Below, piece after piece: positions 1 to 64,000 of a DNA stretch of 64,000 nucleotides; position 1 is the stretch's first letter, and the number at the start of each line of letters is the position of its first letter. The notes under the pieces were generated by a model. The model was not told where the DNA came from, did no database searches, and saw only the letters and a program-made list of their open reading frames with translations. The position numbers and the translations under genes were made by a program. The stretch spans positions 245,086,001-245,150,000 of the forward strand of contig OZ024742.1 in assembly GCA_964016885.1 (NCBI GenBank), written 5' to 3'. Origin of the DNA: Eledone cirrhosa. Lineage: Eukaryota.

Positions 1-392
1 TGTCGGGTTGGTGTTAGGACGTGACTCAGTCTTAATTACATCTAACACTGCAGTAACTTCGGTAGAACTTAAAAAATTTATAAGATCGATAGTTGATACA
101 GGTTCGCAAACGTTGATAAAGACTAGTGACTTGACCATCTAGGAATTGTCACCAAATGTTCCTAATAAAGCTCAAGTCATTCTCTGCTCCTCCTAAGTTT
201 CTTTCCTGAACAATTTACATTAGGTCGTCAAGTATGAAATTTGTAGTGAGGCATTAACAAAGTTTATTTTTTCTACAAATTTCATAGTTGACGAGCCAAT
301 ATTTGCTGCGATAGTGTTGGCCTGCATCAACAAGTATTAGAGAGAAGCTCCTGCACCACTTATGACTTTTCCTTTTGTTTCTTTCAGTACTG

Positions 393-454
<62 letters not shown>

Positions 455-455
<1 letters not shown>

Positions 456-640
456 CGGGTAAAATTTCCGAGATCCATGGACGAGTTCTCTCCAGCGGTC
501 TCTGTCCCTCATTATCGCTGCCATGTCCTGCGTCTCCAAGAGACCAGTGTCTGTCCTTAGGGCATCAACATATGTCAAGTTCAGTCTCCCTCTTCCAGTG
601 TGTCCATGCAGGGGCTCCCACAGGAGCACTGAGTGCAGTG
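455..640 (-). mobile_element. RTE-type LINE C-terminal fragment
   Basis: VLLWEPLHGHTGRGR..TYVDALRTDTG..MRDRDRWR resembles RTE ORF ends. Confidence 0.65.
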
Positions 641-705
641 TCAACTCTGAATGTCAGTGAGCATGTCCAGCTAACCTCAGTTTCCTCAGTGCTACTCTCG
701 AGCTG

Positions 706-741
<36 letters not shown>

Positions 742-1965
742 GAAAGAAATGTATTGTATATCATAAGAAAGCTGGTGGCTAATAAATTAATAAAATAAAA
801 AATCTCGGTGTGTAAAGCCTTTCATTTTAGTTTTACAAATGAATGATATGAAATAACAGTACTAGTCTAGTTATAAGACTGTATCTGGGAGGTATGCTAT
901 TTCGTTCCTCTTAGCGGCCAATGGCAACTTCTTTTCCCGTCTCTAAGGGTCTTCACCCTATTTTATAGCATCTTCGCGTATGAGCACGCCACAGTTGGGC
1001 GTTTGTCGGTAGCGACGATTTGTGTTCCCGTTGATTCAATCAACTGAACAACCTGCTCGTGAAATTATCTAGCTAGTGACTGAGCATACCACGCATACAC
1101 GTGTACCCTTAAGGTAGTTCTCATGAGGAGGTTTGGCGTAACACATAGTGTAACAAGGCTGCCTCTTTAAATTACAGGTGCAACTAATTTTTTGCCAGCT
1201 GAATGGACTAGGGCCACGTGCAGTAGATTGTCTTGCACAAGGACACAACGTACTGCTGGGAATTGAACTGACAACTCTACTATCCTTAGCTGAATATTGT
1301 TCACGTACATCTAAGAGAATTTGTGGCTAATGCTCTATTACCACTAGGTTAATATTTGTAATTTAGAGCGAATTAAACTACTTTTTACATTATGAAATTG
1401 CAAATCCACGAGAAAACCAGTTTAACGGAAGTGAAAACAGTACGTTATGCTTCCAGATTGCCAAACTAAGATTTTGACAAATTCTCTCTAGGATATATAT
1501 TTTGGATTTCAGAATTTCGGACATTATCCAATGCAGTCTTAGATATTGTTAAGGCAGTAAGGTATGGTTTAAGGAAAATTATTTGCTATTTCTACCATGA
1601 CGTCACTCAGAAACCCTCTTGTTGGTTTGGATTTGTGTATTTACATAAAATAGTGCAGACGATGTATTTATTGCTTGTTTTAGTTATAAGCTGATTTTAT
1701 TTGAGTAATCTTCCTTACTTTTCTTTTTAGGCCTTAAACACCCCATATAGGGAGGGTTTTTGTATTAATTGCATTGAAATTTTCAACACACTATATTGCA
1801 TATCCAAGATCCTATCATAGTTATATTTATTATGCAGGACACTGAAGTATTTTTCTTTAACCATAATTGTTGATATTCATAATCAGCGTCCCTGCATTTT
1901 CTATTTCTGTATATATTTATATTAATAACTTTTACTTAGTTTTGCCTACAGAGTAGAATATGTTT

Positions 1966-2000
1966 CACTGAAGAGGTCTAGTAAGACTGAAACATGTCTG
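1966..2000 (+). ncRNA. Minimal hammerhead ribozyme motif with a weak stem I
   Basis: CA [CUGAAGA] GGUCU-agua-AGACU [GAAA] CAUG [UC] UG: canonical core, stem II, palindromic CAUG; only 2 bp of stem I. Confidence 0.55.
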
Positions 2001-2747
2001 TTGCGTTTACGAGTTAGTTTTAAAGACCAGATATACTCCAATTTCCATTGTCTATGTTATCCAAAACATTCGAAGTAGCAAACTTGAAGTAGCAGTAAAA
2101 ATGAAGACTTTTGTAGGTTCATATTTGATATAGAGGCTATTGGTTTCAGAATCTTAGTTCATTAATATGTCTGAACACCATTTCTTTATATATATATATA
2201 GATACACACACAAACATATGTTACAAATATATCTTTAATAATATATATAAAATCAATAAATACATGCATACAAACACACACTCATACATACATATGAACA
2301 TATACGTTAAATACATACGCATGTTTTTAATTTTTTTTTAGTGATTTCAGTTATTTGGGCGGCGACCATGCAATGGTTTCAGTTAATTGTATCGACCCTA
2401 GTATTTATTTTAGTTTTTTTACCTATTTTATGGATATTTATTTATTTTTCTGTGTGTCTGTGTGTCTGTGTACTTCGTTTTTGAATTTGTTTTGCAAGAT
2501 TTCTTATCTGAAAATGTGTGTTGAAACATTTATTGTTATATTTTAGGAGGGCCTTGCTGCCAATAAAACACACCTGGTGGTGTTTTACTTCAATTTATTA
2601 TCAATTTCCTGTTGGTTGGTTCGAACCAGCCAACCAACCGAAAACTTAAAATAAATTGAAGTGAAAACCACCAGGTACGTGTGTTTTTATTGTCAGCATG
2701 ACACTCCCAAAGTATAATTATATATACACACACACACACGCGCGCGC

Positions 2748-2823
<76 letters not shown>

Positions 2824-3008
2824 GAGAATGTTAAGTTTGCTTGAAGCATTGTGGAATAAGAAAAATAGTCGTTTTGGAAGACCCATCTGCATTGTTGAGG
2901 CTTCCAAAACGACTGTATTACATACATACATACACACACACACACACATACACACATGTATATATATGTGTGTATGTATATATATGTATATATATATATG
3001 TATATATA

Positions 3009-3143
<135 letters not shown>

Positions 3144-3275
3144 GTGAGGTTTTTTTTACAAAATGAAAAATAACCGAGGTGTCCTACACGAGTGGAAGTA
3201 TAAAGAAAAAGGGATGAAATCGAAAATGCAACTGAAGTCTTATTTTTTAAAAAATATATATATATTTATTTGGTT

Positions 3276-3313
3276 CCTTTACCGGTTTCGCAGTTCTTCT
3301 GCTTTTCAAAAGG
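3276..3313 (-). ncRNA. Identical minimal hammerhead motif on the opposite strand (left arm of the palindrome)
   Basis: + strand cctttaccggtttcgcagttcttctgcttttcaaaagg is the exact reverse complement of 3379-3416. Confidence 0.75.
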
Positions 3314-3378
3314 TGAGTTGAGATGGAGGGTCTGTGGTTTTTCTGTGAGAAAAACCACAGACCCTCCATCTCAACTCA

Positions 3379-3416
3379 CCTTTTGAAAAGCAGAAGAACT
3401 GCGAAACCGGTAAAGG
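3379..3416 (+). ncRNA. Minimal type-I hammerhead ribozyme motif (Penelope-type, U3:A8 variant)
   Basis: CCUU [UUGAAAA] GCAG-aagaa-CUGC [GAAA] CCGG [UA] AAGG: stem I CCUU/AAGG, stem II GCAG/CUGC, palindromic CCGG helix III. Predicted cleavage after 3412. Confidence 0.75.
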
Positions 3417-3486
3417 AACCAAATAAATATATATATTTTTTAAAAAAAATAAGACTTCAGTTGCATTTTCGATTTCATCCCTTTTT

Positions 3487-3541
<55 letters not shown>

Positions 3542-3889
3542 ATATTAACAAATGGAAACTGTATTTATAAAACCATATTTATTTTATTATACATATTTCA
3601 AGGGCCACCAAGGCAAATTATGGTGCGCTTTCATCAGATAAAATACAATACAGATTAGTTTTATAAATAAATATTGACATACCCTGAAAAAAAGACAACC
3701 TGAACGGTTGGAGCTTCCTGGATAGTGGAGATATTAGATTTATTGAGGGTGATATAAATATGGTTTTATGAATATAGTTTCCATTTGTTAATATATTGTA
3801 TATTTACTCCAATAACTTGTTGAGTGCTTTATATCAGTTATAAAAATATTTTTAAGCTTGTTGGATCCCATCAAATTAAATATAACCTC

Positions 3890-3931
<42 letters not shown>

Positions 3932-4219
3932 AATTCATATGTGCTTTGGATTACAAATTTCTATGATTTACTTTTTTCCAGGTGTTTCACATGTGTGAAT
4001 TCGTGCCTTTGTCCTTTACTGTCTGGTTAACTTATTCATCAATATCAGGTATAGCTTCTTTGTTTCTATTTCGTACACATCTAATGCTTCTATCATATAT
4101 TTGTTATTGTTAACTTTCACACGAAACTAACATAAACAATTGCTTGGCTTTTGTTCTATTATTCAAAGCATAGATCATTTGTATAGAATCAATCACTGTT
4201 TTAAATATTGTATATATGC

Positions 4220-4310
4220 TTCTCTCTCTCTCTCTCTCCCCCTCTCCCTATCTCCCCCTCTCCCTATCTCTCCCTCTTCCTCTCTCTCTCTCTTCCTCTC
4301 TCTCTCTCTC

Positions 4311-4350
<40 letters not shown>

Positions 4351-4448
4351 TCTTCCTCTCTCCCTCTCCCTCACTCTCTCTCCCTCTTCCCCTCTCTCTC
4401 TCCCTCTCCCTCACTCTCCCTATTCCTCTCTCTCCCTCTCCCTCTCTC
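4220..4448. repeat. (TC)n-rich polypyrimidine microsatellite; similar tract at 34098-34232
   Basis: Direct inspection. Confidence 0.95.
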
Positions 4449-4661
4449 TATATATGTATGCACATGCACATACATATATGTGTTTGTGTGTATATATACA
4501 CACTAATATAACACGTAAATAACAATATATTTTTTGGGGTATCTATATTTAGATACACACACCATCATTCCAGTGTTTTAAAAGTACTATATACCTCTAT
4601 ATCTATATACCTAACTAGCTATTGTGTGTGTGTGTGCGTGAAGACAGAAATATTTATGGCT

Positions 4662-4809
4662 CCTCTGCCGGATTTAGGACAAATGAGGTCCTGTGCTAGT
4701 TTAGGTATGAGACAGACCCCTTATATTTGAAAAATTCATCATAAAAAATTTGTTTGACAGGAAGACGGGGCCCTGTGCTCACCTAAGCACAATGGTAAAT
4801 CCAGCACTG
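4662..4809. mobile_element. Possible hAT-type MITE
   Basis: Imperfect TIRs ctctgccggattta / taaatccagcactg; no clear TSD. Confidence 0.45.
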
Positions 4810-5159
4810 TATCTCCTTAGTATAAAGGATAGTGTCCTTGCCTGGTCAGAAGTCAAAAAAAGATATATGGGTCAATTACTGTTGAAGAGGTACCACCACA
4901 TTTGTCTTTCAAATTGGATTGACGTGTCATCATCATCATTAACATCATCATTTAATGTCAATTTTCCCTGCTAGCAAGGATCAGACAGGTCTTCAGAGGT
5001 TGAGTTAGTATTCCAGTCGGGCTATGTGTATAAGGATTAATATTACTCAACTCAAATGACACAGTCCTTGGCTTGTCTAGGAAGACAGTAGCTCCATTAA
5101 ATACTGACTTAGTCTAGAATGATTTGTTCAAACTACGCCAACAGGGAACATGGACGTAA

Positions 5160-5720
5160 AATCATCATCATCATTTTACGTCCACTTTTCCCTGCTTGCA
5201 AGGGTCGGACGGGTCTTATTCAGTACAGCATCTCTCCACTTCTTCACCCATCGGTCATTCTACATGCGCATCACATGTCCATACCACCTCAGTCTCCTCT
5301 CTCGCACACTACATTCTATCCCTCTCAGACACAGTTTCTCTCTCAACACATTTATGCTCGGTCGTTCACGCACATTGACATTGCACATCCAACGGAGCAT
5401 GCTTACCTCATTTCTCTCCAGCTTTTGCATATCCTCTGCAGTTGCTGCCCATGTGTCACTACCATGCAGCATTGCGCTCCTCACACAGGGCATCATATAA
5501 CCGGCCTTTCGTACGCAGGGAGAAACCCTTCTTCGTCAGCAGCGGAAGCAGCTCCCTAAACTTCTTCCAACCCGTCCTTATTCTAGCTACTATGGCCTCA
5601 GAACCCCCCTCCCCCCTCCCTTGCTAATCTGATCACCTAGGTACTGGAAGCTATCCACCACTTCTATAGCACCCGCCTGCATTTGAAAAATGTGTCTATC
5701 AAATCGACTTCTACTGTCTA
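5160..5720 (-). mobile_element. RTE LINE 3' fragment (same family as 16196-19400) with an internal deletion
   Basis: Highly similar to 16200-16880; translation ...ERRLRWYGHVMRM; (ATG)n tail. Confidence 0.9.
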
Positions 5721-6277
5721 GGGGGAGTCTTGTACTCTCAGTCACATCACATTATGGAGACTGGGATAAGCACTGGCTTGATGAGACAGACTTTGGTATA
5801 GACACATACATATATATTATGCATACACACTTACATACATATACCTGTATGCACACATGCTTACCTATTTAAACTCCTGTATGTATATGTCACTGGTAAC
5901 ATATAATCCAGTACTGTGTTAGATCGGTGAGGAAGGTTGCTAGAAACCCAGTTGGACAAAATCAAGCCCTGTCAGAACGATGGCTAAACAAATCATTGAG
6001 TCAACAGCTATCTTGCCTCAGTGCATGAGGACACAGAAACACTTGAATTGGTGACCAAGAGTGTAGCAAAACTACTGAAAGTGATGGACCCATAGTTCTA
6101 GTCAGAGCATCCATCTAGCAGATACAAAACTCCAATTTCAAATTCTCACTGTTTTTGCAGGTAAGACTTGAGTAACCAATTGTCAGTGATAGATCTTCAG
6201 GTACGTGTCAAATAACCTCGCTATCCTGTAAATGTTAGGAATAGCATAAGACTAAAGAAAACAACTCTGGTAAATAT

Positions 6278-6463
6278 TTGTTTCTACTTTTGGCACAAGG
6301 CCAGCAATTATCCCAGTGTATTACTGGTACTTTATTTTATCGACCCCGTAAGGATGAAAGGCAAAGTTAACCTCAGCGGGATTTGAACTCAGACCATAAA
6401 GGACCGTAACTCTTTGCTGCAAAGTATCGCGTCCAACCCTCTATCGATACTGCCAATCCACCG
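6278..6463 (-). mobile_element. SINE family A copy
   Basis: Reverse complement of the 10571 consensus. Confidence 0.8.
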
Positions 6464-7829
6464 TTGGAGTAAAGTCCACAAATGGTTCTTTATCAACTCT
6501 TGTATCCTGTCTCATCTTCAACCATCTTAATTATGTCTTGTTGCTGGATTCAGATGAGCGAGGAAGATGGATGATAGTTATAAGTAGGGATAACTGAAGC
6601 TAAGTTACACACCATTTATAACTTTGGCACCAACTGATTCATAAACAGACAGTAGAACCTTTTTTATTACATTGACCAAGGTATCAATTACTAATGAATG
6701 AATATGAACGTGTTGTGAGGCAATTGTATTTTGGGATTATTAATTTCTTCAATGTCTATAAGTTTTAAATACTTTTTTAGTAAAAGAGTTGTCAGTAATA
6801 TCCTAGAAGATGTCACAAACTAGACCACATGAAATATATTTATGGCCGTAGCCCAAACTATTCTGTATTACTGAATCAGAACTGCCTAGAATTAGTTTTA
6901 AGATATCCAAAGGATCGCCAGCACCATAATAGTATGTATATATGATCCCATAACTCCTGGTGGAGTCATAGGGATACTGTAGTGATATCAGGCGTTTCTT
7001 AGGCAGTTTAAACCTGGAGAGCCCATCCTTCTTTAGATTTGAACACAGCCAATTTCTTACAGAGAAGGAGGGGGGTGAGAAAGAAATATAGTTAACCTCA
7101 GTGAGATTTGAACTCAGAGCACAGAGAGACAAAATGAATACTCAAAAACATTACTATTTGATGTTCTAATGACTCTGCCAATTCACCATTTCAACGCTAC
7201 AAAAGACAATCAATCAAATTAGAATCTGAGAATCTTTGGAGATATCTATAGATTGAGATGTTAGTTACTGGTTTTTCATTACCGTTAATTATCTCCCTCT
7301 CTTTCCCTCTCTTTTTGAGAGTGGTGGTGGAGGTAATTTTTCTTGAACCAACATTTTCATACCTGTTCTATAATCAAGTTCAACTTTTGGACTGATTACT
7401 CTCTATTTTCTATGTTGACTCTTGAACTTGACCTTTTGTCAGTATCATTTTTGTTTTTTTGTTATTGTAATCTTTTCTTTCTGACCACTGAGAGAGAAGT
7501 AAGAGATATTTATCTACCATTTCTGAAGTTTATCTTATTTATTGATGCAGACCTTGACCAGTTTTCTCATATCTTAAGTTGTTTTTTTCCTAGAGAATGT
7601 AGCTTTTAAATTGTTTTATTGAGGTTATTAAACATATTTATTTTATTGTTCATTTAAATTAATCAGTTGTATACAATAGAGTTTATATTTAGCCTGAACT
7701 GTTAGACTAAAACTGCCTGATCAACAAACTATGTCATAGTGTTCTAATGTTAAACTAAATGTAAACAAAACAAACTGACACTGAATTTAAATGAGTCAAT
7801 CTATTTTTCATATTCTACTTGTTATTGTT

Positions 7830-8020
7830 ATTTAATCAATCCTGATCCAATACACCTATGATAAAAGGCTCTCCATTCATAATCACCCTCTCTTTTAAAG
7901 AAAATATCTATCACTACATTATCGAATGTGTACTCTCCTTATATAAGATAGTTGGGTGTGATTTAAGGAAGATTTGGCTGCTATTTCTTGTAGATTCAGT
8001 GACTGTGTAGAGGCATCCTT
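7830..8020. repeat. Dispersed repeat family (gtgtgattt.a.g.agatttggctgctatttct..), also at about 1480-1625, 19740-19900, 35150-35315, 50200-50350 and 56960-57120
   Basis: Recurrent ~150-200-bp similarity seen by eye; class not determined (probably a SINE). Confidence 0.55.
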
Positions 8021-16196: not shown

Positions 16197-19100
16197 ATCA
16201 TCATCATCATCATCATTTTACGTCCGCTTTTCCTTGCTTGCAAGGGTGGGACGGGTCTTATTCAGCACAGCATCTCTCCACTTGTCACAGTCCTTCGTCA
16301 TCTCCACCGTGAGCTTCAATGATCTGAGGTCTGTTCTCACCACCTCCGCTCATGTTTTTCGTGATCTACCTCTACCACCTCTTCCTTCAACTGGCATTTC
16401 CTGGCACTTCTTCACTCATCGGTCATCCTCCATTCGCATCACATGTCCATACCACCGCAGTCTCCTCTCTCGCACACTACATTCTATCCCTCTCAGACAC
16501 AGTTTCTCTCTCAACACATCCATGCTGGGACGTTCACGCACATTGGCATTGCACATCCAACGGAACATGTTTGCCTCATTTCTCTCCAGCCGTCGCATAT
16601 CCTCTGCAGTTGCTGCCCATGTGTCACTACCATGCAGTATCGCGCTCCTCACACAGGCATCATATAACCGGCCTTTCGTACGCAGGGAGAAACCCTTCTT
16701 CGTCAGCAGAGGAAGAAGCTCCCTAAACTTCTTCCAACCCGACCTTATTCTAGATACTATGGCCTCGGAACACCCTCCTCCCATGCTAATCTGATCTCCT
16801 AGGTACCAGAAGCTATCCACCACTTCTATAGCGCCCTCCTGCATTTGAAAAATGTGTCTATCAATGCGACTTCTACTGTTTAATTTCCCTGTACATCTAC
16901 TGCATACATATTTATCCCTACCTATTAGTTTGCCTGCTATCCCGCTACATCTCTTGTGTACCTAGGATCTGCATTGTGTGCATTTTATAGAATTTATGCC
17001 AGTTCCTTTTCTGCATATCGAACATGGCCATTTCCCTGATGGAATCAGAGTTTTGTCCTCTTTTCTACTCATCAACACTTTTGTCTTAGCTAGGTTCACT
17101 CTCAGTCCTCTTGCTTCCAACTGCTGTTTCCATAGCCAGAATTTATTCTCCAGCTCCTCTACTGATTCTGCTATAAGAACCAGATCGTCAGCATAGAGAA
17201 GTTCCCATGGACAGCCAGTCTTGAACTCCTCTGTTATGGCTTGGAGGACTATAATGAACAAGAGCAGGCTGAGGACTGAACCTTGATGTACTCCTACTTG
17301 TATCTGGAATTCCTCACTAAACTCCATTCCTACCCTGACTTTACTGAGAGTACCTCTGTACAATGTTTGCAGTGTCCTCACAAGCCATTCCTCAACACCT
17401 AGCTTCCTTAGGGACCACCAGATGACAGATCGGGGTACCCTATCAAAGGCCTTCTCTAGGTCAACAAAGGCTAAGTATAGTGGCTTATTTTTCTCTAAGA
17501 ACCTCTCTTGCAATTGTCTCACCAATAAGAGGGCATCTGTTGTACTCTTCCCAGGCACAAAACCAAACTGCATCTCATCTAGTTTGACCCTTTCTCTAAT
17601 TAGTTGTGCTAATATCCTTTCTGACACTTTCATAACCTGATCCATCAGTTTTATACCCCTATAATTACTCCTCTCCAGAGCATCCCCTTTACCTTTGTAG
17701 CAATTTATGAGAATACTGCTGCACCAGTCTTTGGGTATGACACCACCATATATAGCCTGATTGATGATGCGTGCAACCAGTTTAGTGCCTATGTCCCCTG
17801 ATGCCTTCAGCATCTCAGCAACTATTCCTGATGGTCCAGCAGCCTTACCATTTTTCATTTCCTTAATCGCCTCTTGGACCCTATATTCGTCAATCTCAAT
17901 AGCTGGTCCCTCTGTCGGATCTACCAAGGGTAATTTCTCTCTCTCCCATTCGTTCTCCACATTCATCAGTCTCTCATAAGGACATTTCCAGGCCTCCTTT
18001 TTCTGATCATTCGTGATACTAAGTACACCGGCATCATCCCAGACACATTTATCTCCAACAACATCCTGATTTGCATTGACACACTGCCTTGCAATGTGGA
18101 ACACCACACGCCTCTGATCTTCCCATCGCAGAACATTGGCAAACCTCCTACTCTCCGCCTCCCTGCGTGCTAAGTACACCTGACGTCTAGCTTCTTTCTC
18201 AGCGGCTGTATATCCTTCTCTACTCCCACCCTTTTTCCAAGCCTACCATGCTAGCCTTTTGTCTCTAATGGCCCTATCTACTATGCTGTTCCACCACCAG
18301 GTCACTCTCTGTCTGGTTGGAGCTCTGCTCCAGCCACAAGTTTCATCAGTAGCCTGCAGCAAGTTGTCACGTAAGAAATTCCAGTTATTATCTATGTCAT
18401 ACGTCTCTAAATCGTCTTCTTTTTCGTCATATACAACTTGAAGGGCTTTCCTAAATTTGTATTTTAGTGAAAGGTATTTTAGCTTACAGGCCTTTCTTCT
18501 CCACACCTTCCTGTATGTCTCATTCCATCTCTTGCTTACTGAGATATCACTAATGACTAACCTATGCTGTGGGGTACATTCTTCCCCAGGGTATGCCTTG
18601 GTATTAGACACTATCTGCCTGTCAATCTGGCTTATGTGCTCACCAGATTTGTAGGTTATTAGGTGATTGGCAGGTTTCTGGAAGTTTGTGTTGCAAATAG
18701 TCAATGTACCTGCATCACAAAATTCAAGAAGTCTCACTCCTTCTTCATTTCTTGAGCCGTAACCGTGCTCACCATGTACCCCAGTGTAACCATCATGGAG
18801 CTGTCCAACATGACCATTGAAGTCTCCTGCTAGCATAACGATGTCTCCGTCCTCTGTCATTGTGGTTGTTTGTAAAAGTTGCTCGTAAAAGCAGTCTTTC
18901 TCATCTTTGCCTAGGCCTGCTTGGGGAGCATAGGCAGAGATGATTATCAGTAGTCTCCTGCCTACAACTAATCTAAGCTTAATTATTCAATTACTAACTC
19001 GAACTACCTCTATTGTCTTATTGATCCATTTCTCAGCCAGGAAAATGCCTACTCCCCCTAACCCATCATCCTTACCTACCCAGAATAGCTTATAGCTAAG

Positions 19101-20667: not shown

Positions 20668-22420
20668 TCATCATCATCATCATCACCGTTTTACGTCCGT
20701 TCTTCCACGCTAGCATGGGTTAGACGGGTTGTCCTGTTGTGGGCAGTGTCTGGTCGGCTGACCATGCCTTGCTCATACAGGAACTGATTTGGCTTCATTT
20801 CTACAGCTGGATGCCCTTCCTAACACCAACCTCATTTACAGTGAGTGCTGGGTGCTTTTTCGTGGCGCCTACACGTCCACTTTACAGTGTGGGCTGGGTG
20901 CTTTTTTGCCGTGGCACCTCCACGACCACCTTGTGGTGGGGGTGTGGGGGCATATTGTCTATATGCTTCAGCTTGTACCCATGGGAGGTCGGGTACTCTG
21001 TATTACTGCGTGACGCCAGAGGTCACGGTCGTGTGTCATCGCCTTTGAGAGGTGTAATTGGGTAAGGTCGGCTTTTATCACCTCATCCCAGGTCTTCTTG
21101 GGTCTCTCCACTCTGCAGTTTCCATCGACTTCTAGTGCTCTGCACCTTTTTATGCAGCTGTCATCCTTCATACGCATCCCATGTCCATACCAACGCAACC
21201 CCCTCTCCTGCACACAGCATTTGATTCCTCTTATGCTCAGACTCTCTCTCAATTCATTTATACTTTGCCGTTCGCGTATATTACTATTACACATCCTTCG
21301 GAGCAGGCAGGCTTCGTTTCTTTCTAATCTATGCAAGTCTTCCACAGACAGCACCCAGGTCTCACTACCATGCAACATCGCTGTTCGGATACACGCATCA
21401 TACAGTCTGCCTTTCATTTTGAGGGAAAAGCCTTTTGCAGCTAGCAGTGGTAGTAGTTTCCTAAACTTCTTCCATCCCGTTCTTACCCTAGTTATTGTAC
21501 TTTCTGAACACCCACCTCCGCTGCTAATTCGGTCACCTAGGTAGCAGAAGCTGTCTACTGTTTCTACAGAGCCCTCCCAAAGATTAGTGGTACTTGTTTC
21601 CTGTGGCTGTTTGCTGCTTGCTGTCCCAGCACAGCTGCTGCATGTGAAGCCTACATTCTTAATTAAGCTTCCTGAGATCCCGTTACCCATTGTTTGCATT
21701 TGGGGCAGAGAATGGAGTTCCTACCTACACCTTTCCTACATACTGAGCAAGGCCATTTCCCTGAGGGGATCTGGGTTCTGTTTTCTCGTCTACTTACAAG
21801 GACCTTAGTCTTTGTCATGTTGACTTTGAGACCCTTTCTTTCTAGTCCCTGCTTCCAAGTTTGGAATTTCTTCTCTAGTTCTACCATAGATTCAGCTATA
21901 AGTGCGAGGTCATCAGCATACAGGAGTTCCCATGGGCATCCGGTCTTAAACTCCTCCGTTATTGCCTGCAGGACTATAATGAACAGGAGGGGGCTAAGAA
22001 CAGAGCCCTGGTGGACCCCACCTGTACGCTAAATTCCTCGCTATACTCATTGCTAATCCTAACTTTGCTGACTGCTCCCCTATACATGGTTTGTGCTGCT
22101 TTTACAAGCCATTCATCTACTCCTAGTTTTCTAAGAGTCCACCAGATTACAGCACGTGGAACTCTGTCAAAGGCTTTCTCAAGGTCGACAAATGCCAGGT
22201 AGAGTGGCTTACTTTTAGCTAGGTACTTTTCCTGTAAGTGCCTCACAAGGAAGAGGGCATCAGTGGTGCCTCTTCCTGGTACAAACCCAAATTGCATCTC
22301 GTCTAGTTTCACCCGGTCCCTAATCAACTGTGCTATAACTCTTTCTGTTACTTTCATGACCTGGTCCATCAGCTTTATACCTCTATAGTTTCCTCTATCG
22401 AGTGCATCACCTTTACCTCG
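20668..22420 (-). mobile_element. 5'-truncated RTE-clade LINE with a long 3' UTR and (ATG)n tail
   Basis: RT motifs in ORFs 21974-22444 (QFGFVPG, DLEKAFD), 21663-21887 and 20968-21699 (LRWYGH); frameshifted; 3' UTR ends ...cggacgtaaaacggtgatgatgatg. Confidence 0.92.
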
Positions 22421-22544
22421 CCATGATTCTCTGTCTAAAATCATCCTTCAAGACACAGTTGAGGGAGGGTGAAAAAGAGGCAGAGAAAGAAAATCCTAAT
22501 CTAACAACATCAAGGACTGGACAGATCACAACACCATGACCCTT

Positions 22545-28936: not shown

Positions 28937-29755
28937 TGCATTCATCACATATATATATAGAGAGATATATACATACATTCATCACACACATATACATATG
29001 TCTGTGTCACACCATACAACATAAGGAATAACTAAGTTATAAGATATGACTAAGTATGTTTTACTATCAACTTATTGTTCTATAAAATCTGTCCATATAT
29101 TCAAAATATTGGTAAATCAATGCAATACCAGTAGTATAAATATATTAACAGCTACACACACACTCACATATATGTAGTTACACCATGTGTTTTTCCATGT
29201 GGTTTTTGACATGGTGTGGTGTGTCAAACTTCTCTCCAGATACCTGCAAGTATATTACTCTGTATACTACTTTTTTGCTTCTATTTTTCTATTAGAATGC
29301 TAAAGACTATACCTCTGAGAAGTTTTCTGAGTCTGCTGTGGTTTAATTATTATCAATAGTTTGTGAACGATAACCGTTCACATAGATCAATTTTAAATCA
29401 CAGTTTACAGTTAACAAAATGGCACCATAAGGTCACTTTTGATTCCATTTTGAATACATGTTCTTCTCTGTATTTAGTATATGTACAATATACTGTGTCA
29501 TCTCTGGATAAATGGTTCTTTCTCTCTCTCTCTCTTTATATATATATATCTTGTACTTCTGACTTATATATATATACACACTGTAAATGTGTTAGTGTTA
29601 GGAAGAGCATCATCATCATCACCACCGTTTTACGCCCATTCTTCCACGCTAGCATGGGTTAGATGGGTTGATTTTGGCTTGATTTCTACAGCTGGATGCC
29701 CTTCCTAACATCGACCTCATTTACAGTGAGTACTGGGTGCTTTTTTACCGTGGCG

Positions 29756-32700
29756 CCTACACGACCACTCTACAGTATGGACTGGGTTCTTTTTTGTCAT
29801 AACACCTCCACGACCACTCTACAGTATGGACTGGGTTCTTTTTTGTCATAACACCTCCACGACCACTCTACAGTATGGACTAGGTTCTTTTTTGTCATAA
29901 CACCTCCACGACCACTCTACAGTATGGACTGGGTACTTTTTTGTCATAACACCTCCACGACCACTCTACAGTATGGACTGGGTACTTTTTTGTCATAACA
30001 CCTCCACGACCACTCTACAGTATGGACTGGGTACTTTTTTGTCATAACACCTCCACGACCACTTTACAGTATGGACTGGGTACTTTTTTGTCATAACACC
30101 TCCACGACCACTCTACAGTATGGACTGGGTACTTTTTTGTCATAACACCTCCACGACCACTCTACAGTATGGACTGGGTACTTTTTTGTCATAACACCTC
30201 CACGACCACTTTACAGTATGGACTGGGTACTTTTTTGTCATAACACCTCCACGACCACTCTACAGTATGGACTGGGTACTTTTTTGTCATAACACCTCCA
30301 CGACCACTCTACAGTATGGACTGGGTACTTTTTTGTCATAACACCTCCACGACCACTCTACAGTATGGACTGGGTACTTTTTTGTCATAACACCTCCACG
30401 ACCACTCTACAGTGTGGACTGGGTACTTTTTTGTCATAACACCTCCACGACCACTCTACAGTGTGGACTGGGTACTTTTTTGTCATAACACCTCCACGAC
30501 CACTCTACAGTATGGACTGGGTACTTTTTTGTCATAACACCTCCACGACCACTCTACAGTGTGGACTGGGTACTTTTTTGTCATAACACCTCCACGACCA
30601 CTCTACAGTGTAGACTGGGTTCTTTTTTGTCATAACACCTCCACGACCACTCTACAGTGTAGACTGGGTTCTTTTTTGTCATAACACCTCCACGACCACT
30701 CTACAGTGTAGACTGGGTACTTTTTTGTCATAACACCTCCACGACCACTCTACAGTGTGGACTGGGTACTTTTTTGTCGTAACACCTCCACGACTACTCT
30801 ACAGTATGGACTGGGTACTTTTTTGTCATAACACCTCCACGACCACTCTACAGTGTGGACTGGGTACTTTTTTGTCGTAACACCTCCACGACTACTCTAC
30901 AGTATGGACTGGGTACTTTTTTGTCATAACACCTCCACGACCACTCTACAGTGTGGACTGGGTACTTTTTTGTCGTAACACCTCCACGACTACTCTACAG
31001 TATGGACTGGGTACTTTTTTGTCATAACACCTCCACGACCACTCTACAGTGTGGACTGGGTACTTTTTTGTCATAACACCTCCACGACCACTCTACAGTA
31101 TGGACTGGGTACTTTTTTGTCATAACACCTCCACGACCACTCTACAGTGTGGACTGGGTACTTTTTTGTCATAACACCTCCACGACCACTCTACAGTGTA
31201 GACTGGGTTCTTTTTTGTCATAACACCTCCACGACCACTCTACAGTGTAGACTGGGTTCTTTTTTGTCATAACACCTCCACGACCACTCTACAGTGTAGA
31301 CTGGGTTCTTTTTTGTCATAACACCTCCACGACCACTCTACAGTGTGGACTGGGTACTTTTTTGTCGTAACACCTCCACGACTACTCTACAGTATGGACT
31401 GGGTACTTTTTTGTCATAACACCTCCACGACCACTCTACAGTGTGGACTGGGTACTTTTTTGTCGTAACACCTCCACGACTACTCTACAGTATGGACTGG
31501 GTACTTTTTTGTCATAACACCTCCACGACCACTCTACAGTGTGGACTGGGTACTTTTTTGTCGTAACACCTCCACGACTACTCTACAGTATGGACTGGGT
31601 ACTTTTTTGTCATAACACCTCCACGACCACTCTACAGTATGGACTGGGTACTTTTTTGTCATAACACCTCCACGACCACTCTACAGTGTGGACTGGGTAC
31701 TTTTTTGTCATAACACCTCCACGACCACTCTACAGTGTAGACTGGGTTCTTTTTTGTCATAACACCTCCACGACCACTCTACAGTGTAGACTGGGTTCTT
31801 TTTTGTCATAACACCTCCACGACCACTCTACAGTGTGGACTGGGTACTTTTTTGTCGTAACACCTCCACGACTACTCTACAGTATGGACTGGGTACTTTT
31901 TTGTCATAACACCTCCACGACCACTCTACAGTGTGGACTGGGTACTTTTTTGTCGTAACACCTCCACGACTACTCTACAGTATGGACTGGGTACTTTTTT
32001 GTCATAACACCTCCACGACCACTTTACAGTATGGACTGGGTACTTTTTTGTCATAACACCTCCACGACCACTCTACAGTGTGGACTGGGTACTTTTTTGT
32101 CCTAACACCTCCACGACCACTCTACAGTATGGACTGGGTACTTTTTTGTCCTAACACCTCCACGACCACTCTACAGTGTGGACTGGGTACTTTTTTGTCA
32201 TAACACCTCCACGACCACTCTACAGTATGGACTGGGTACTTTTTTGTCATAACACCTCCACGACCACTCTACAGTATGGACTGGGTACTTTTTTGTCCTA
32301 ACACCTCCACGACCACTCTACAGTGTGGACTGGGTACTTTTTTGTCCTAACACCTCCACGACCACTCTACAGTATGGACTGGGTACTTTTTTGTCCTAAC
32401 ACCTCCACGACCACTCTACAGTGTGGACTGGGTACTTTTTTGTCATAACACCTCCACGACCACTCTACAGTATGGACTGGGTACTTTTTTGTCATAACAC
32501 CTCCACGACCACTCTACAGTATGGACTGGGTACTTTTTTGTCCTAACACCTCCACGACCACTCTACAGTGTGGACTGGGTACTTTTTTGTCCTAACACCT
32601 CCACGACCACTCTACAGTATGGACTGGGTACTTTTTTGTCCTAACACCTCCACGACCACTCTACAGTGTGGACTGGGTACTTTTTTGTCATAACACCTCC

Positions 32701-33257
32701 ACGACCACTCTACAGTATGGACTGGGTACTTTTTTGTCATAACACCTCCACGACCACTCTACAGTATGGACTGGGTACTTTTTTGTCCTAACACCTCCAC
32801 GACCACTCTACAGTATGGACTGGGTACTTTTTTGTCATAACACCTCCACGACCACTCTACAGTATGGACTGGGTACTTTTTTGTCCTAACACCTCCACGA
32901 CCACTCTACAGTATGGACTGGGTACTTTTTTGTCCTAACACCTCCACGACCACTCTACAGTATGGACTGGGTACTTTTTTGTCCTAACACCTCCACGACC
33001 ACTCTACAGTATGGACTGGGTACTTTTTTGTCCTAACACCTCCACGACCACTCTACAGTATGGACTGGGTACTTTTTTGTCCTAACACCTCCACGACCAC
33101 TCTACAGTATGGACTGGGTACTTTTTTGTCCTAACACCTCCACGACCACTCTACAGTGTGGACTGGGTACTTTTTTGTCCTAACACCTCCACGACCACTC
33201 TACAGTATGGACTGGGTACTTTTTTGTCATAACACCTCCACGACCACTTTACAGTAT
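29756..33257. repeat. 49-bp minisatellite, ~71 units (acctccacgaccactctacagtatggactgggtacttttttgtcataac)
   Basis: Period 49 (for example 30001 to 30050); grows out of an RTE-related element beginning at about 29608. Confidence 0.97.
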
Positions 33258-33687
33258 CTAACTGTAAAAACCCTGGTCAAATTTACGGTCCCGCCAGAGC
33301 AAGGTACGGCATGGCCAATCCTGGTCAGACTTATTGTCTCGCAAGGACGACCTATCTGACTCATGCAAGCATGGACAAATGGACATTATGATGATGATGA
33401 CCCACGCACACACACATACATACACGTATACACACACATACAGTGCACACACACATATATATATGCATGTATACACACAGGCACACATACACATATGTAT
33501 GCACACACACACACACACACACATACACACTTGTATATATGTACACACACATATATATATATATATGTGCACACACACACTACCTAAATAGTTTATAAGT
33601 TGTGTTGTAATTAATGAAAAAGATACTCTGGGTATGATATAAATATGAGTGGATAGTTTATATCTATGATGAATGTATATATATAAA

Positions 33688-35376: not shown

Positions 35377-35396
35377 ATGCCTTCAAAGTGATGTGA
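35377..35396 (+). promoter_or_regulatory. Two chained uORFs: M-P-S-K-stop (35377-35391) and start-stop ATG-TGA (35391-35396), overlapping the main ATG
   Basis: Sequence ATG CCT TCA AAG TGATGTGATG GAT. Each TGA shares its A with the next ATG. Confidence 0.65.
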
Positions 35397-36157
35397 TGGA
35401 TGGAGGAGAATCAGTGGTGGAAGCTGGTGGGATCCTTAACTCGGAGCAGCTCTTGTCTCAAACTGAATGTTCTTCATCACATGGTGAGAAAGATACTCTT
35501 TTAGAAAGTAAAGATTCCCTGGAAAATAACCAAATTATTGACAGTAATGTGACAAAAGACAGTCAGTCTGGTAATGAAGGACAGCTAGGGGAAATTTCTC
35601 AAGTTCAAGCTGTGACAGTTTCTTTACCATCTTCAACAGAATCTTGTCAGAATCAAGTGGACACACAACTAGAACAGCAACTAACACAACAACAAATAGA
35701 CAAAGAACACCAACAGCAATTATCTTCAGCACCATCACCTTATCAACAGCAGCTAGATGAGCATCAATATGAAAACAACACTCAAGAAGAACCCCAATCT
35801 CACCACCAGCCCCAACCATACCATTCAAATGATGACCCATATGATTTTAATAATGAAGACTTTAATAATGCTTCTGTCTTGAAATTCTGTCCAAGATTTA
35901 TTGGAGGGATTCAACAGAGCTCAAGAATTGCAAAAACTTCAGACAATGCTAGCTCAGCAGAATTTTGCACAGAAAAGCCTGTGTTTGTACAGCCAGGTTA
36001 TGACTACCATAACATTAAAATGTATGATGTATCAAATGCAGCCACTCTTTCTAAATTGGATTCTGGGAGTAATGAAAGTGATCAGCATCAAAACTGTACT
36101 GTTAATGGTATTTTGCAACAAGATACACCAGCAGTAACTCCTGGAGATAATAATCAG
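35396..36157 (+). CDS. First coding exon of a large, probably nuclear, low-complexity protein (254 aa: MDGGESVVEAGG...GDNNQ). The exon itself starts at 35371.
   Basis: Long polypyrimidine tract plus AG at 35369-35370. In-frame TAA at 35375 lies upstream of the ATG at 35396 (G at -3 and +4). The frame is open, non-repetitive and Q/S/E-rich, and ends at donor CAG|GTAAGA (36157/36158), phase 0. Confidence 0.85.
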
Positions 36158-36181
36158 GTAAGAATTGCAATTCTTCTTTAA

Positions 36182-58619: not shown

Positions 58620-59070
58620 TATTCCAATTGTGTTTTCTGTTCAGGCCAGGTCTATATTCTACTATGTGTGTGGCCTCCGTAATTTGTCTAATTGTCTGAT
58701 CGGTGTGTCAGTTCTATGTGTGGATAGGATCTTTATTTCTATGTTATCTATTGAGGCCCCGTGTTCTAGTTTGGCCTGTTAATAGAGCACTGATGAGCTT
58801 TTCTCCTCCTTAAGTTCTCACTAGTGTTCCTTTAATATATCTCCTATACTACAAGCTGTCTCTGCTATGTATGTCATTGTCTTGTTTCTGTATCGTCCCT
58901 CTCTACATCTTACCCTATAGACTACATTATTAGTATTACAGGTCATCTGTGGGCTTATCTTACAGACCAGACAGTTTCTATCAGTACATGGGAGCTTTCC
59001 TAAAGGGGTATGTCATTCTAATCTGGGATTTTATGGTAGCTCCTGGTTTTTCTATTACTTTAATCCTAAG
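58620..59070 (-). mobile_element. Penelope-like element GIY-YIG endonuclease fragment (decayed)
   Basis: Minus-strand manual translation CLVC..CNTNNVVYRVRC...YIAETA...LKEH, then RQITEATHI..RPGLNRKHNW. Confidence 0.7.
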
Positions 59071-60837: not shown

Positions 60838-61213
60838 AATTATATTGTAATGTTTTGTTGTCTGTACATGATAGGCCAAAAGTTGATTACTCTAGAATGG
60901 ACCCCTTAAACATATGGCCTAATTGGGAGCAATTGGTTCAATTAGTTTAAGTCCAACCCTGGATTTAATCTATCTTTGAACTAGGATTAGAATTATTTTA
61001 TTTAGACGTAAGATACTGTGTTTTAAAACTGAATTAAAACAAAACTCCTGATAACATTTAATAACATTTTGTGTAACATTGTATATTTGCAATGCAACAC
61101 AAAATGAATTTAAAGAAAGCATTGTAAAATATTTTTACTGACATTAATAGTGATGTAATTACATATTAGTTTAGCATAAAAGTAATGTATATATATATAT
61201 TTATATTCTTCAG

Positions 61214-64000
61214 GTACATAAAACATTAAGAAGATCCCAGGAAAATCTCCCAAAAGATGCAGTTTCAAATGTTTCAAAGTCTCGGTTATCTAACAGGGAT
61301 GTTTTTCAAAATCAAACTCAGGAAGCATTATCTATGCAGTCCCCAAAACCAGTTTTACCAACCAAAGACAATATTGACAAATCTATTGTTTCTTCATCCA
61401 TCTGTTCTTTTGAAAAGAACTGTGAAATGGAAATCAGCCATATAGATAATCCTAGTATTAATAATGAACTCCAGTCCATTCAACCAGAGATGAACCATAA
61501 AACATTACAATCTCAGGGATATGCATTTACTGAATCATCATATGTTAATGGAAGTCAGCTTGAAGATATAACTGGGTCTAGCTTTGCTGACACTAATCAG
61601 AAAAATCTTAATGATATACATAATATCACCACTGGAACTCTTGATAATGGTTCCATCAGTGGAAAAGGCTATTCTCCAGATTCAGATGTGATGGTTCCCC
61701 TAAAAGAGAATTTAGAAGTTAACACCAACTGTGAACAAAGCCTGATCTCAAAGCAATCTAATCCTGCAGCTGTAGGTAGTCCAACGACTTTCCATGTATC
61801 ACAGTCATTGCCTCCTTCTACATCTGATGAAAATATGCTGTGTGATAAACTTTCTGAAGAATCAGTTAGAAGGAACCTTCTAGATATGCCATACCAAGCA
61901 ATATCTGAATCTAGAAAAAGTCTCAACATTGATGACATACTAAAATGTAAGCGACCGAAAATTTGTCATTCTGAAAATTCTTCATTTTCATTTCATCAAC
62001 CGTCACGATCATGGCCAGCTGTAACTACAGCCATGTTACAATATCCCAGCTCAATATCATCAGTTCTTTCTCCAAGAAAACCAGTTGATATGTCTGTCGA
62101 CCAGACACATTCAAATGTTGATAAAAGATTAATGCAAGCCAGTAAAGCAAACAATGTTGACTCTGTTATTGTAAGCAATGTTTTACCAAGTGGAAATGAT
62201 CTGAATGATGACATTATGAAACATACTTCCAATCTGTCATATTGCTATGATAAAAGCATTAAATCAGAAAACCATTCTGAAATGTCTAAAGGTAATGAAA
62301 CTGATTCAAATGCCATATTATCTGGCAGTCAGTGTATTCCAAGGAACTACAATCATAACTCAACATCTCAGTCATTATCTTCAAAAGACGATATAGCTCA
62401 ACATATTTTATCTCCTGCTCAAAATTTTATTGTTAATTCAATTGATTCAGAAGTTCACAATTCATCTATTCTGGTGCCTGACAGCTCACAGTATAAAGAA
62501 AGAGCAAAACCGAGCCAGACAAGAACATCACCTAGATCTGCTACTGCATCAAAAACAAGAAATGTAAAATCTTCATACAGAAGTCAAATAAAAGCAGTGA
62601 AATCAAGAAGTTCTTTGAGAAATCTCCCATCTGATAACAGATTGCTTTCAGCTGAACACAGAACACAATCCTCATTAAATGATTCTATGTTGAACAGTCA
62701 GCTTCAGTTATCAACATTTGATTCTCTACCAAATGCTGCTAATCTTACAGCATTGTCTGCAAATTCTCTTCAACAACTGCCTGAATATATGCCATATAAT
62801 AAGGTACAATTTGCTCCAAACGCTCATGGTAACATTTCTAATGTACCATATAGTTCACATGCCTCTTCAAGATATGGTAATATACAGGCAGGAGATCAAA
62901 ATGTAGCCATGTCATTTGCAGAACATTCTTCAGCTACATCATTAGCAACTTCAAAATTAACAACTGACAGTGTTAAACAACGTCGAGGATATTTACCACA
63001 TCATTTGCTTCCAATGTCATTAGTTAGCAATAAAACTATGAGTAGTCACATCTGTTCAGCACCTAATATAGTTACTCCACAATATACTTCTAGCATTTAT
63101 ACTTGTGCTGCCAGCAAAACTAGTTTTAGTTCAAGTACATTATCTAACCAATCTAAATATCCATCCCTGAACTCCCTCCCCCCACCTCCTCCATATCCAG
63201 GCCCTCCCTCCTATGAAGAAGTTCTTCAAAATATGGTGCCTGCAGCAATCAAAAAAGAGGATTTCCTATCTGACCAACAACAGTTTGGCAGCAGTAGGAA
63301 ATCTCTTTGGCAGCCATTCTCTGAAGGAAATACAAATATGGTTCAGATAAAAACTGAACCAATTTCTGATATTGATTCTTCAACTGAAGCAGCAGCATCA
63401 ACATCATTATCGTCTGCTTCACTAGTCCCTTTGCCTACATTTCGGGATTCTTTTAGCTCAAATTCAATGAACACTCAGATGATTATGTCCTCAAATCAAA
63501 AGTCTATGCCATCCTCTCATTCTGTAAATAATTACCAAATACCTCATCCTTCTAGTACAAGTGCACATACTTTCAGCCAACCATTGCCAAAATCCCTGTG
63601 CATAGGTAAAGTAAAGCTACCAGCAGTTAGTTCAAATGCCAGTAGGGATTTAAAACCTCCAAAAATGTATGCCCCGGAAATATCATCCTCTGACAACCAA
63701 TTTAAACTAAATTCTATAAAAATTGAACCAAACAACAGTGGAAATCCATTATCTCCAGATGTTAAATGTAAATTTTCAATAAATAATTCAAATTTTACTG
63801 AAAGTGATTTTCAAAGTGCTTTCCTTAATTCTTGTCCCCAAAATACCAAAATCCCTAGTGAGAAAATGGCCAGAATTTCAGATGCTTTCAATTCCACTGT
63901 CAAACATATCTTTAACAATAAACATCCTGCTGATACAAAGGAAAATTCATGTCATGAGGGCAATAAAGGATCTAATCCCCAAGTAAAAATTGAACCATGT
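61214..64000 (+). CDS. Giant coding exon (>=929 codons, runs off the window), probably the next coding exon of the 35396 gene; Ser/Asn/Pro-rich, probably disordered
   Basis: Acceptor ttatattcttcag|GTA at 61213/61214. My manual translation from 61214 (VHKTLRRSQENLPKDAVS...NPQVKIEPC) has no stop through 64000. Phase 0 matches the 36157 donor. It is missing from the ORF track, probably because it has no stop in the window. Confidence 0.88.

What the first reader, a model, noticed from the sequence alone, without database searches (positions are those of the whole stretch)
3199..3493. Long palindrome carrying two intact, oppositely oriented minimal hammerhead ribozyme motifs (U3:A8 variant)
Seen: 146-bp inverted arms with a 3-nt loop. 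Each arm encodes CCUU-UUGAAAA-GCAG(aagaa)CUGC-GAAA-CCGG-UA-AAGG, i.e. all hammerhead elements, with the C3:G8 pair replaced by the compensatory U3:A8. Established: Penelope-like elements carry minimal hammerheads with a palindromic helix-III tetranucleotide that cleave as dimers, and such elements often have inverted ends. Inference: a transcript from either strand contains one ribozyme plus its perfect antisense, so it would fold into long dsRNA that masks the ribozyme. This would be a self-silenced ribozyme cassette, possibly in the 5' intron of the + strand gene, and a potential ADAR/Dicer substrate.
Basis: partly seen in the sequence, partly recalled or inferred. Interest (0 to 1): 0.8.

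Follow-up and report, generated by a model that had tools for sequence, protein, structure and literature searches.

The report
Head-to-head Penelope retrotransposon ends with hammerheads
The palindrome is two short end-pieces of a young, very abundant Penelope-like jumping gene joined head to head, each carrying that element's predicted self-cutting RNA motif; it is one of more than a thousand such palindromes in this genome and is likely a by-product of how the element copies itself, not a purpose-built silencing cassette.

Summary
The arms are 146 bp (89 perfect, 3 mismatches) and each holds a minimal type I hammerhead motif with a U3-A8 core (0 hits in 60,000 shuffles). It is not unique: a 31-mer of the motif occurs 11,267 times in the genome, and 1,372 palindromes have this kind of centre. 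The parent is a Penelope-like element with RT, cysteine linker and GIY-YIG nuclease, inserted in (TA)n. The insert is really 3137-3493: the left copy has a 62-nt tail that the right lacks. U3-A8 cores, opposite-strand hammerhead pairs and one-sided tails are published. Not found in my searches: 71 of 71 classifiable pairs have one long and one short end, 5' ends pile up at one boundary, and either arm may be longer. This likely reflects two primings on one RNA. Inserted cores decay like their flanks, with no ADAR signature and no cleavage footprint. Cleavage and expression are untested. Ordinary in kind, useful for mechanism.

The parts
3137..3344 (-). Left copy: 5'-truncated 3' end (pLTR) of the Penelope-like element, -64 to +141 relative to the predicted cut site (long end)
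   Evidence: 98% identical to natural full-length copies
3344..3493 (+). Right copy: same pLTR, -68 to +79 (short end)
   Evidence: 98% identical to natural full-length copies
3137..3198 (-).
   Evidence: one-sided in 71 of 71 classifiable pairs
3379..3416 (+). Minimal type I hammerhead motif: U3-A8 core, helix I 4 bp, helix II 4 bp, palindromic ACCGGT helix III, predicted cut after 3412 (GUA)
   Evidence: activity untested
3276..3313 (-). Mirror-image hammerhead motif in the left copy, predicted cut 3' of 3280
3344..3348 (.). Head-to-head junction of the two 5'-truncated copies, 1-nt overlap, no untemplated bases
   Evidence: the same junction occurs at C1:86148096
2971..3136 (.). TA-rich microsatellite, left target flank (start approximate)
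   Evidence: sequence
3494..3537 (.). (TA)n microsatellite, right target flank
   Evidence: sequence
3982..4048 (+). Probable internal exon (AG/GT-bounded) of a + strand host transcript; would place the insert in the preceding intron
   Evidence: run X4 contig covers 3980-4048 only, with 189 and 92 nt lying outside the stretch laid, while run X1 covers 3938-4215 without a break; X4 is not on record as RNA

Best explanation
This is a head-to-head pair of 5'-truncated ends of a young Penelope-like retrotransposon family in a TA microsatellite, likely made in one insertion event as a by-product of transposition, and each end carries the family's predicted dimer-dependent hammerhead. Shown: identity to the 3' end and 5' pLTR of full-length elements, the (TA)n flanks, one long (+141) and one short (+79) end, and 5' ends just inside a sharp boundary at -71/-72. 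Inferred mechanism (about 0.6): a transcript starts at about -71 in the 5' pLTR. The RT-GIY-YIG protein nicks both strands of a TA tract and primes two cDNAs on the same uncleaved RNA, one at +141 and one at +79. Both run off the RNA's 5' end after only 150-210 nt, and their 3' ends join through 0-2 nt of microhomology, which gives the palindrome. The hammerhead would matter in the parent, where two sense copies 4.7 kb apart in a partial tandem could pair. In this copy a read-through intronic RNA would bury it in dsRNA, as a consequence and not a function (about 0.9).
For: Copy number: 11,267 exact 31-mers, control 0; 10,882 by the flanks; 1,372 centre-type palindromes. Parent: many 775-aa open frames among the 150 best-scored hits. 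L061 reads pLTR with motif, ORF1, ORF2 (RT PF00078 E 1.3e-6, just under its curated cut-off; C-x4-C-xx-C linker; GIY-YIG PF01541 E 2.1e-6), 1.1-kb UTR, motif, tail. Sample 1 (first 100 of the 11,267 matches plus the window; 125 arms): 3' ends 68 at +141 and 44 at +79; 41 head-to-head pairs = 36 long+short, 5 long+other, 0 long+long, 0 short+short (p 1.5e-11); 67 of 124 5' ends between -74 and -56; (TA)n follows 96 of 118 long or short ends. Sample 2 (40 of the 50 loci listed, none among the sample-1 pairs): 35 long+short, 4 long+other, 1 other (p 2.9e-11); 77 of 80 5' ends at -72 or inside it. Arms of a pair are closer than random arms: 1.8% vs 4.1% and 1.5% vs 4.7%, with 9 shared rare variants vs 0.25 expected. 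The short-end arm reaches further 5' in 15 of 36 and 11 of 35 pairs, and in 7 of 14 pairs that differ by more than 20 nt, which a fold-back copy of the long arm cannot give. In vitro, another PLE protein nicks and extends both strands, starts internally at two sites that define the tail, and uses uncleaved RNA (PMC11167929). Fold kept at lineage level: a sister family (73% aa) has a C3-G8 hammerhead motif with different helices at the same end (735 matches).
Against: No RNA data: start site, expression and cleavage are all unobserved. Similar arms could also come from gene conversion after insertion. 2 of 30 and 2 of 35 pairs disagree at the two subfamily-diagnostic bases; one in each sample is a true subfamily mismatch. 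Central deletion of a longer fold-back palindrome could also make either arm longer. Sample 2 leans to the long arm being longer (19 vs 11, 5 ties). 43 of 125 arms in sample 1 were not in a pair by my rule. 5' ends near -570/-590 are probably alignment breaks, not true ends. The reference was cut at +141, so the long end is bounded by it. The samples come only from the first 100 Mb of contig C1. Published tails are 30-40 bp; this one is 62. Within the family there is no covariation, so the case that the motif works rests on sister families and on literature.
Confidence: 0.75

Rival explanations
1. Same element, but the palindrome forms by self-priming (fold-back) of one cDNA or on an antisense template, as proposed for rotifer Penelopes, with later trimming or deletion at the centre.
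For: Proposed in PMC3846280 (passages). The arms of a pair share rare variants. Junctions fall at short self-complementary words. The long arm is the longer one in 19 of 35 mini-palindromes.
Against: In 26 of 71 pairs the short-end arm extends further 5' than the long-end arm, by kilobases in some (L124: -3370 vs -861). A copy of the short arm cannot gain the tail, and a copy of the long arm cannot exceed it without a later deletion. Both arms stop at the same boundary.
Confidence: 0.2
2. The mini-palindrome is itself a mobile non-autonomous unit (MITE- or retrozyme-like) copied from one or a few master palindromes.
For: A few junction types recur often (-72/-70, -72/-68, -69/-69). Retrozymes are described as non-autonomous PLE derivatives (bioRxiv 10.64898/2026.07.22.740005, passages).
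Against: Many different junctions exist. The same junction occurs with either arm carrying the tail. Sizes run continuously from 0.2 kb to full length with the same long+short rule. No tandem arrays of this unit were seen.
Confidence: 0.08
3. One reading: a self-silenced ribozyme cassette kept for a function in the host intron (dsRNA for ADAR or Dicer, or a switchable ribozyme).
For: The hairpin would form and mask the motif. The site is probably intronic. Both motifs are intact here.
Against: Both motifs are also intact in 23 of 40 other young palindromes. Core, helices and 5' flank mutate equally (0.94, 0.94, 0.90%). No A>G excess. Nothing distinguishes this copy from its family.
Confidence: 0.05
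4. Assembly or library fold-back artefact.
For: Near-perfect palindromes can arise this way (general knowledge). This locus was not checked with long reads.
Against: One-sided tail, unmirrored flanks, 1.5-1.8% divergence between arms across the family, at least 1,372 cases with a fixed end rule, and strand-switch joints at the boundary in short-read contigs.
Confidence: 0.02

Closest known systems
Minimal hammerheads in PLE pLTRs, including the U3-A8 variant of Schistosoma Cercyon elements (Cervera & de la Pena 2014, PMC4209133; parts 1-2 of 4 read)
   Same: Type I motif in the pLTR, short helix I, G10.1-C11.1 pair, palindromic helix III that needs a dimer, U3-A8 core (about 1,300 hits there), mostly in truncated copies, and dual motifs 100-700 bp apart on opposite strands.
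   Different: Helix II is 4 bp (7-8 bp in Schistosoma), there is no extra base between positions 9 and 10.1, and copies are far more uniform and numerous (11,267 exact 31-mers).
C-terminal EN+ PLEs of the Neptune/Nematis type (Craig et al. 2021, PMC8557442; Introduction and passages)
   Same: RT, CX2-5CxxC linker and GIY-YIG with two cysteines between its halves; partial tandems forming pLTRs; inverted 5'-truncated copy; one-sided tail; (TA)n targets.
   Different: Tail is 62 nt rather than 30-40. The parent has a separate 400-aa ORF1 overlapping ORF2 in the -1 frame. The paper's Fig. 1 legend mentions a frameshifted ORF1 in some PLE type, but the figure is not held, so I cannot say which clade. 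No tree was built, so Neptune versus Nematis is open.
Poseidon PAc of Anolis (Frangieh et al. 2024, PMC11167929; parts 1-2 of 4 read)
   Same: Two internal RT start sites that bound the tail, both target strands nicked and extended, AT-rich targets, uncleaved RNA as template, no reads ending at the cut site.
   Different: There the hammerhead overlaps the ORF start and has C3-G8; here it lies 171 nt upstream of ORF1. In the parts I read, the two starts are not said to be used one per strand in the same event.
Adineta vaga Penelopes with inverted pLTRs and junction palindromes (PMC3846280, passages)
   Same: Head-to-head inverted pLTRs, tail on one of them, overlap at the junction, Inr-like sequence in the pLTR.
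   Different: A few dozen copies there, explained by self-priming; here thousands, with length asymmetries that argue against simple fold-back.

Membership tests
Penelope-like element, C-terminal EN+ | RT followed by a GIY-YIG endonuclease in one frame in the parent | tested here: met
   L061 ORF2: PF00078 E 1.3e-6 (28.7 bits, cut-off 29.6) and PF01541 E 2.1e-6 (above cut-off); DKG and YLDD motifs visible in the translation. The window itself holds no coding part.
Penelope-like element, C-terminal EN+ | pLTR formed by a partial tandem; inverted 5'-truncated copy | tested here: met
   L055, L056, L058, L061 and L070 carry the motif-bearing end both before ORF1 and after ORF2; most of the 20 stretches fetched have an inverted copy
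Penelope-like element, C-terminal EN+ | One-sided tail | tested here: met
   71 of 71 classifiable pairs are long+short; 62 nt, longer than the published 30-40
Neptune/Nematis type | CX2-5CxxC linker between RT and EN | tested here: met
   CGRSNCGTC in family A, CGDPRCGTC in family B
Neptune clade | (TA)n microsatellite targeting | tested here: met
   96 of 118 long or short ends are followed by perfect (TA)4; both window flanks are TA
Neptune clade | RT phylogeny groups with Neptune | not tested
   No named reference RT sequences were fetched; no tree was built
Minimal type I hammerhead (PLE type) | Core boxes with a 3-8 pair, helices I and II, UH triplet | tested here: met
   U3-A8, GAAA, GUA triplet, 4-bp helices; 0 of 60,000 shuffles. 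Rfam hammerhead models give no hit.
Minimal type I hammerhead (PLE type) | Palindromic helix III allowing a dimer | tested here: met
   ACCGGT; the cofold minimum has intermolecular helices I and III (-20.3; active-like form -18.9 kcal/mol)
Minimal type I hammerhead (PLE type) | Covariation in the helices | tested here: inconclusive
   None within the family. The same topology with different helices occurs in a sister family and in about ten other repeat families, but homology of those motifs to this one is shown only by position, in the sister family.
Minimal type I hammerhead (PLE type) | Self-cleavage | not testable with these tools
   No RNA run listed; needs an in vitro assay
Non-LTR retrozyme | Tandem head-to-tail hammerhead repeats of a few hundred bases | tested here: not met
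   Copies are head-to-head pairs or singles; the only direct repeats seen are 4.7-kb partial tandems of the full element

The most novel reading that the evidence does not exclude
The strict one-long, one-short rule (71 of 71), the shared 5' boundary and the free choice of which arm is longer are the genomic fingerprint of the Penelope insertion mechanism: a dimeric RT-endonuclease primes both target strands on a single uncleaved RNA at two fixed sites and joins the two cDNAs head to head. This would explain the long-noted inverted ends and tails without antisense self-priming. The family, whose parent also has a -1 frameshift-type ORF1/ORF2 overlap conserved with a 44%-identical sister family, would be a ready model with over a thousand short natural products.
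Probability: 0.5. Interest if true: 0.55.

Novelty: new member of a known kind. Interest (0 to 1): 0.3.

Why it matters
As a single locus it is ordinary: one of more than a thousand truncated retrotransposon palindromes, and each headline feature (minimal hammerhead, U3-A8, opposite-strand pairs, inverted ends) is in print. Its value is statistical. How Penelope-like elements make inverted ends and tails is named as an open question in the papers read, and this family gives a large, young sample with a fixed end rule that separates the candidate models and names exact positions to test (-71, +79, +141). It also seeds the genome with many 300-bp near-perfect hairpins, some probably in introns, which could be a background source of dsRNA; that is untested.

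Tried and rejected
Rfam scan of 1-8000: no hammerhead family, only sub-threshold hairpin models. DNA search of the own genome with the arm returned nothing, because the tool skips very common words; patterns were used instead.

Footprint of cleavage: if cut RNA were a template, arms should start at +1. Only 157 junctions genome-wide join a boundary arm to an arm starting between about -22 and +8. Starts are spread out: 1 of 30 at +1 by script, and about 3-4 of the 100 listed by eye. Rejected.

ADAR signature in inserted copies: A>G 8 of 3,437 vs T>C 18 of 4,810 sites; none. Selection on inserted cores: none.

RNA evidence: no RNA holder listed, which is no evidence either way. No GT..AG joint inside the pLTR was listed in the contigs laid, so a possible pLTR intron stays untested.

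Family B hammerhead: a TTGACAA core with a 4-bp helix II was found upstream of ORF1, but helices I and III are unconvincing; not counted as support. Host gene: long + strand frames at 35378 and 61175 have no Pfam match above cut-off; unnamed.

Literature: 'Penelope + Neptune + ribosomal frameshift' 0 papers; 'Penelope-like + slippery + frameshift' 0; 'Penelope + twin priming + inverted + retrotransposon' 2 listings, unrelated by title and not opened; the Terminon search added nothing that I opened. The library lacks most subscription papers, figures are not held, and I opened no supplements, so absence from print is weakly shown. Earlier scan notes: none for this genome; eight from other genomes did not bear on this locus. 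No protein homolog search, structure prediction or tree was run.

Full report
Observation. The palindrome is real: 89 perfect pairs around GTG at 3345-3347, extending to 146 bp (3199-3493) with three mismatches in a low-complexity tract. Each arm has all hammerhead boxes with U3-A8, a 4-bp helix I, a 4-bp helix II and the palindrome ACCGGT in place of helix III; the predicted cut is after 3412. A descriptor for this found 0 hits in 60,000 shuffled arms and 0 in 20 shuffled windows. Rfam does not recognise it.

It is a repeat. An exact 31-mer spanning the motif occurs 5,674 + 5,593 times in the 3.0-Gb own genome, control 0. Many matches are divergent pairs, and the first 30 loci end in (TA)n at one of two fixed points. 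Upstream of one copy lies the C-terminus of a GIY-YIG nuclease. A search with it gave 150 scored hits out of 10,476 candidates, many in 775-aa open frames. Twenty stretches around such frames show the parent: motif-bearing pLTR, a 400-aa ORF1 starting 171 nt after the cut site, an overlapping ORF2 in the -1 frame with RT, a C-x4-C-xx-C linker and GIY-YIG, a 1.1-kb UTR, and the motif again. Several copies are partial tandems and most have an inverted truncated copy at the 5' side. This is the architecture described for C-terminal EN+ Penelope-like elements; the linker and (TA)n targets point to Neptune or Nematis (PMC8557442). No tree was built.

What the window holds. Mapped on a natural full-length copy, the left arm is -64 to +141 (3137-3344) and the right arm -68 to +79 (3344-3493), both 98% identical, with a 1-nt overlap. 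The insert is therefore larger than the palindrome and asymmetric: a 62-nt tail lies on the left only. A pattern for this kind of centre finds 1,372 loci, one of the 50 listed having the same junction.

The end rule. Sample 1 took the first 100 of the 11,267 matches plus the window and gave 125 arms: 68 end at +141, 44 at +79 and 13 elsewhere. Of 41 head-to-head pairs, 36 are long+short and 5 long+other; none is long+long or short+short. 43 arms were unpaired by my rule. Sample 2 took 40 of the 50 loci listed: 35 long+short, 4 long+other, 1 other. 5' ends pile up at a boundary: 67 of 124 lie between -74 and -56 in sample 1, and only 2 of 80 pass -72 in sample 2, which was selected for ends near there. 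Because of 1-2 nt overlaps, the true limit may be the A at -71, in an initiator-like context (the consensus is recalled, not tested). Contig depth along the pLTR steps up at the same place, and strand-switch joints fall there (contigs only, possibly the assembly's own sample). The arms of a pair differ at 1.8% and 1.5% of sites against 4.1% and 4.7% for shuffled partners, and share rare variants 7 and 9 times. The short-end arm reaches further 5' in 15 of 36 and 11 of 35 pairs, including the window.

Mechanism. In vitro, the Anolis PLE protein nicks and extends both target strands, starts internally at two sites that bound the tail, prefers AT-rich DNA and uses uncleaved RNA (PMC11167929). Two cDNAs primed from opposite strands of the target give exactly a head-to-head pair with 3' ends facing outward. 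Independent choice of start sites would give long+long and short+short pairs; their absence, with shared variants, suggests both primings use one RNA (inference). Starting in the 5' pLTR, both copies run off the RNA end after 150-210 nt and join by microhomology. The published alternative, self-priming (PMC3846280), does not by itself give a short-end arm that is longer than the long-end arm, though later central deletions could. Gene conversion could also explain the similar arms.

Is the ribozyme real? At lineage level, probably. The dimer with intermolecular helices I and III is the predicted minimum. A sister family (73% amino-acid identity) carries a C3-G8 motif with entirely different helices at the same end (735 matches). 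About ten other repeat families in the held loci show the same topology. Minimal PLE hammerheads are reported as inactive as monomers and weak as dimers, or protein-assisted. At the level of inserted copies there is no selection: core 8 of 852, helices 13 of 1,389, 5' flank 7 of 779, loop 4 of 379, 3' flank 32 of 2,199 minor alleles, and no compensatory change. There is no peak of 5' ends at the cut site and no A>G excess. Cleavage was not tested.

Host context. A contig from run X4 matches only 3980-4048, bounded by AG and GT, and carries 189 and 92 further bases from elsewhere, while run X1 covers the stretch without a break. That is how a spliced transcript would look, so the insert probably lies in an intron, but X4 is not on record as RNA and the upstream exon was not located. 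A read-through RNA would form a -235.8 kcal/mol hairpin that masks the motif. This follows from the geometry and holds for every such palindrome.

Comparison and verdict. Cervera and de la Pena already report U3-A8 cores in Cercyon PLEs and dual motifs on opposite strands 100-700 bp apart; inverted copies, one-sided tails and microsatellite targets are standard. This is a new member of a known kind. My searches did not find the strict long+short rule or a dual-priming reading in print, but the library is incomplete and I saw no figures or supplements. Interest 0.3.

Noticed in passing
L061:4301-7740; L185, L186 and other family B loci: The parent has ORF1 (400 aa) overlapping ORF2 in the -1 frame at CATTTTTTAG. 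The T-run site and the two-ORF layout are kept in a second family (ORF2 44%, ORF1 32% identical), which suggests programmed -1 frameshifting in an endonuclease-bearing PLE. Two paper searches found nothing; a figure legend mentions a frameshifted ORF1 in an unnamed PLE type.
   Followed up: partly
window 3582-3643 (-), inside repeat 3540-3880: A third minimal hammerhead motif (C3-G8 core, long helix II, ATATGTAT helix III) in a different high-copy repeat right beside the palindrome.
   Followed up: partly
L089 / L158; 735 matches genome-wide: A sister family (73% aa) shares much of the 3' UTR but ends in a different hammerhead motif with a C3-G8 core and a 4-bp helix III, suggesting a swapped 3' end and a monomer-competent form.
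   Followed up: partly
held loci, e.g. L018, L073, L082, L086, L110, L118, L123, L126, L131: About ten distinct minimal-hammerhead repeat families with palindromic helix III; some also form divergent pairs.
   Followed up: no
L184, L186, L187, about 280 nt upstream of family B ORF1: A TTGACAA (U3-A8) core with a 4-bp helix II and GAAA, but weak helices I and III.
   Followed up: partly
element pLTR, -67 and +103 (window 3345 for the first): A GTGAG donor-like site just inside the 5' boundary and a pyrimidine tract ending in AG at +103 could bound an intron containing the whole hammerhead motif; by eye only.
   Followed up: no
window 16419-18986 (-): Broken LINE with AP endonuclease and RT matches (PF14529, PF00078); a similar fragment at about 20971-22447.
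   Followed up: no
window 29624-33300: 49-bp tandem satellite, about 70 copies, 92-95% alike.
   Followed up: no
window 35378-36178 and 61175-64000 (+): Long open frames of a probable host gene, with no Pfam match above cut-off.
   Followed up: partly
window 58824-59012 (-): Short frame resembling a PLE linker and GIY-YIG start by eye; no Pfam hit.
   Followed up: partly
window 2572-2680: Small imperfect inverted repeat, possibly a MITE-like or another truncated inverted pair.
   Followed up: no
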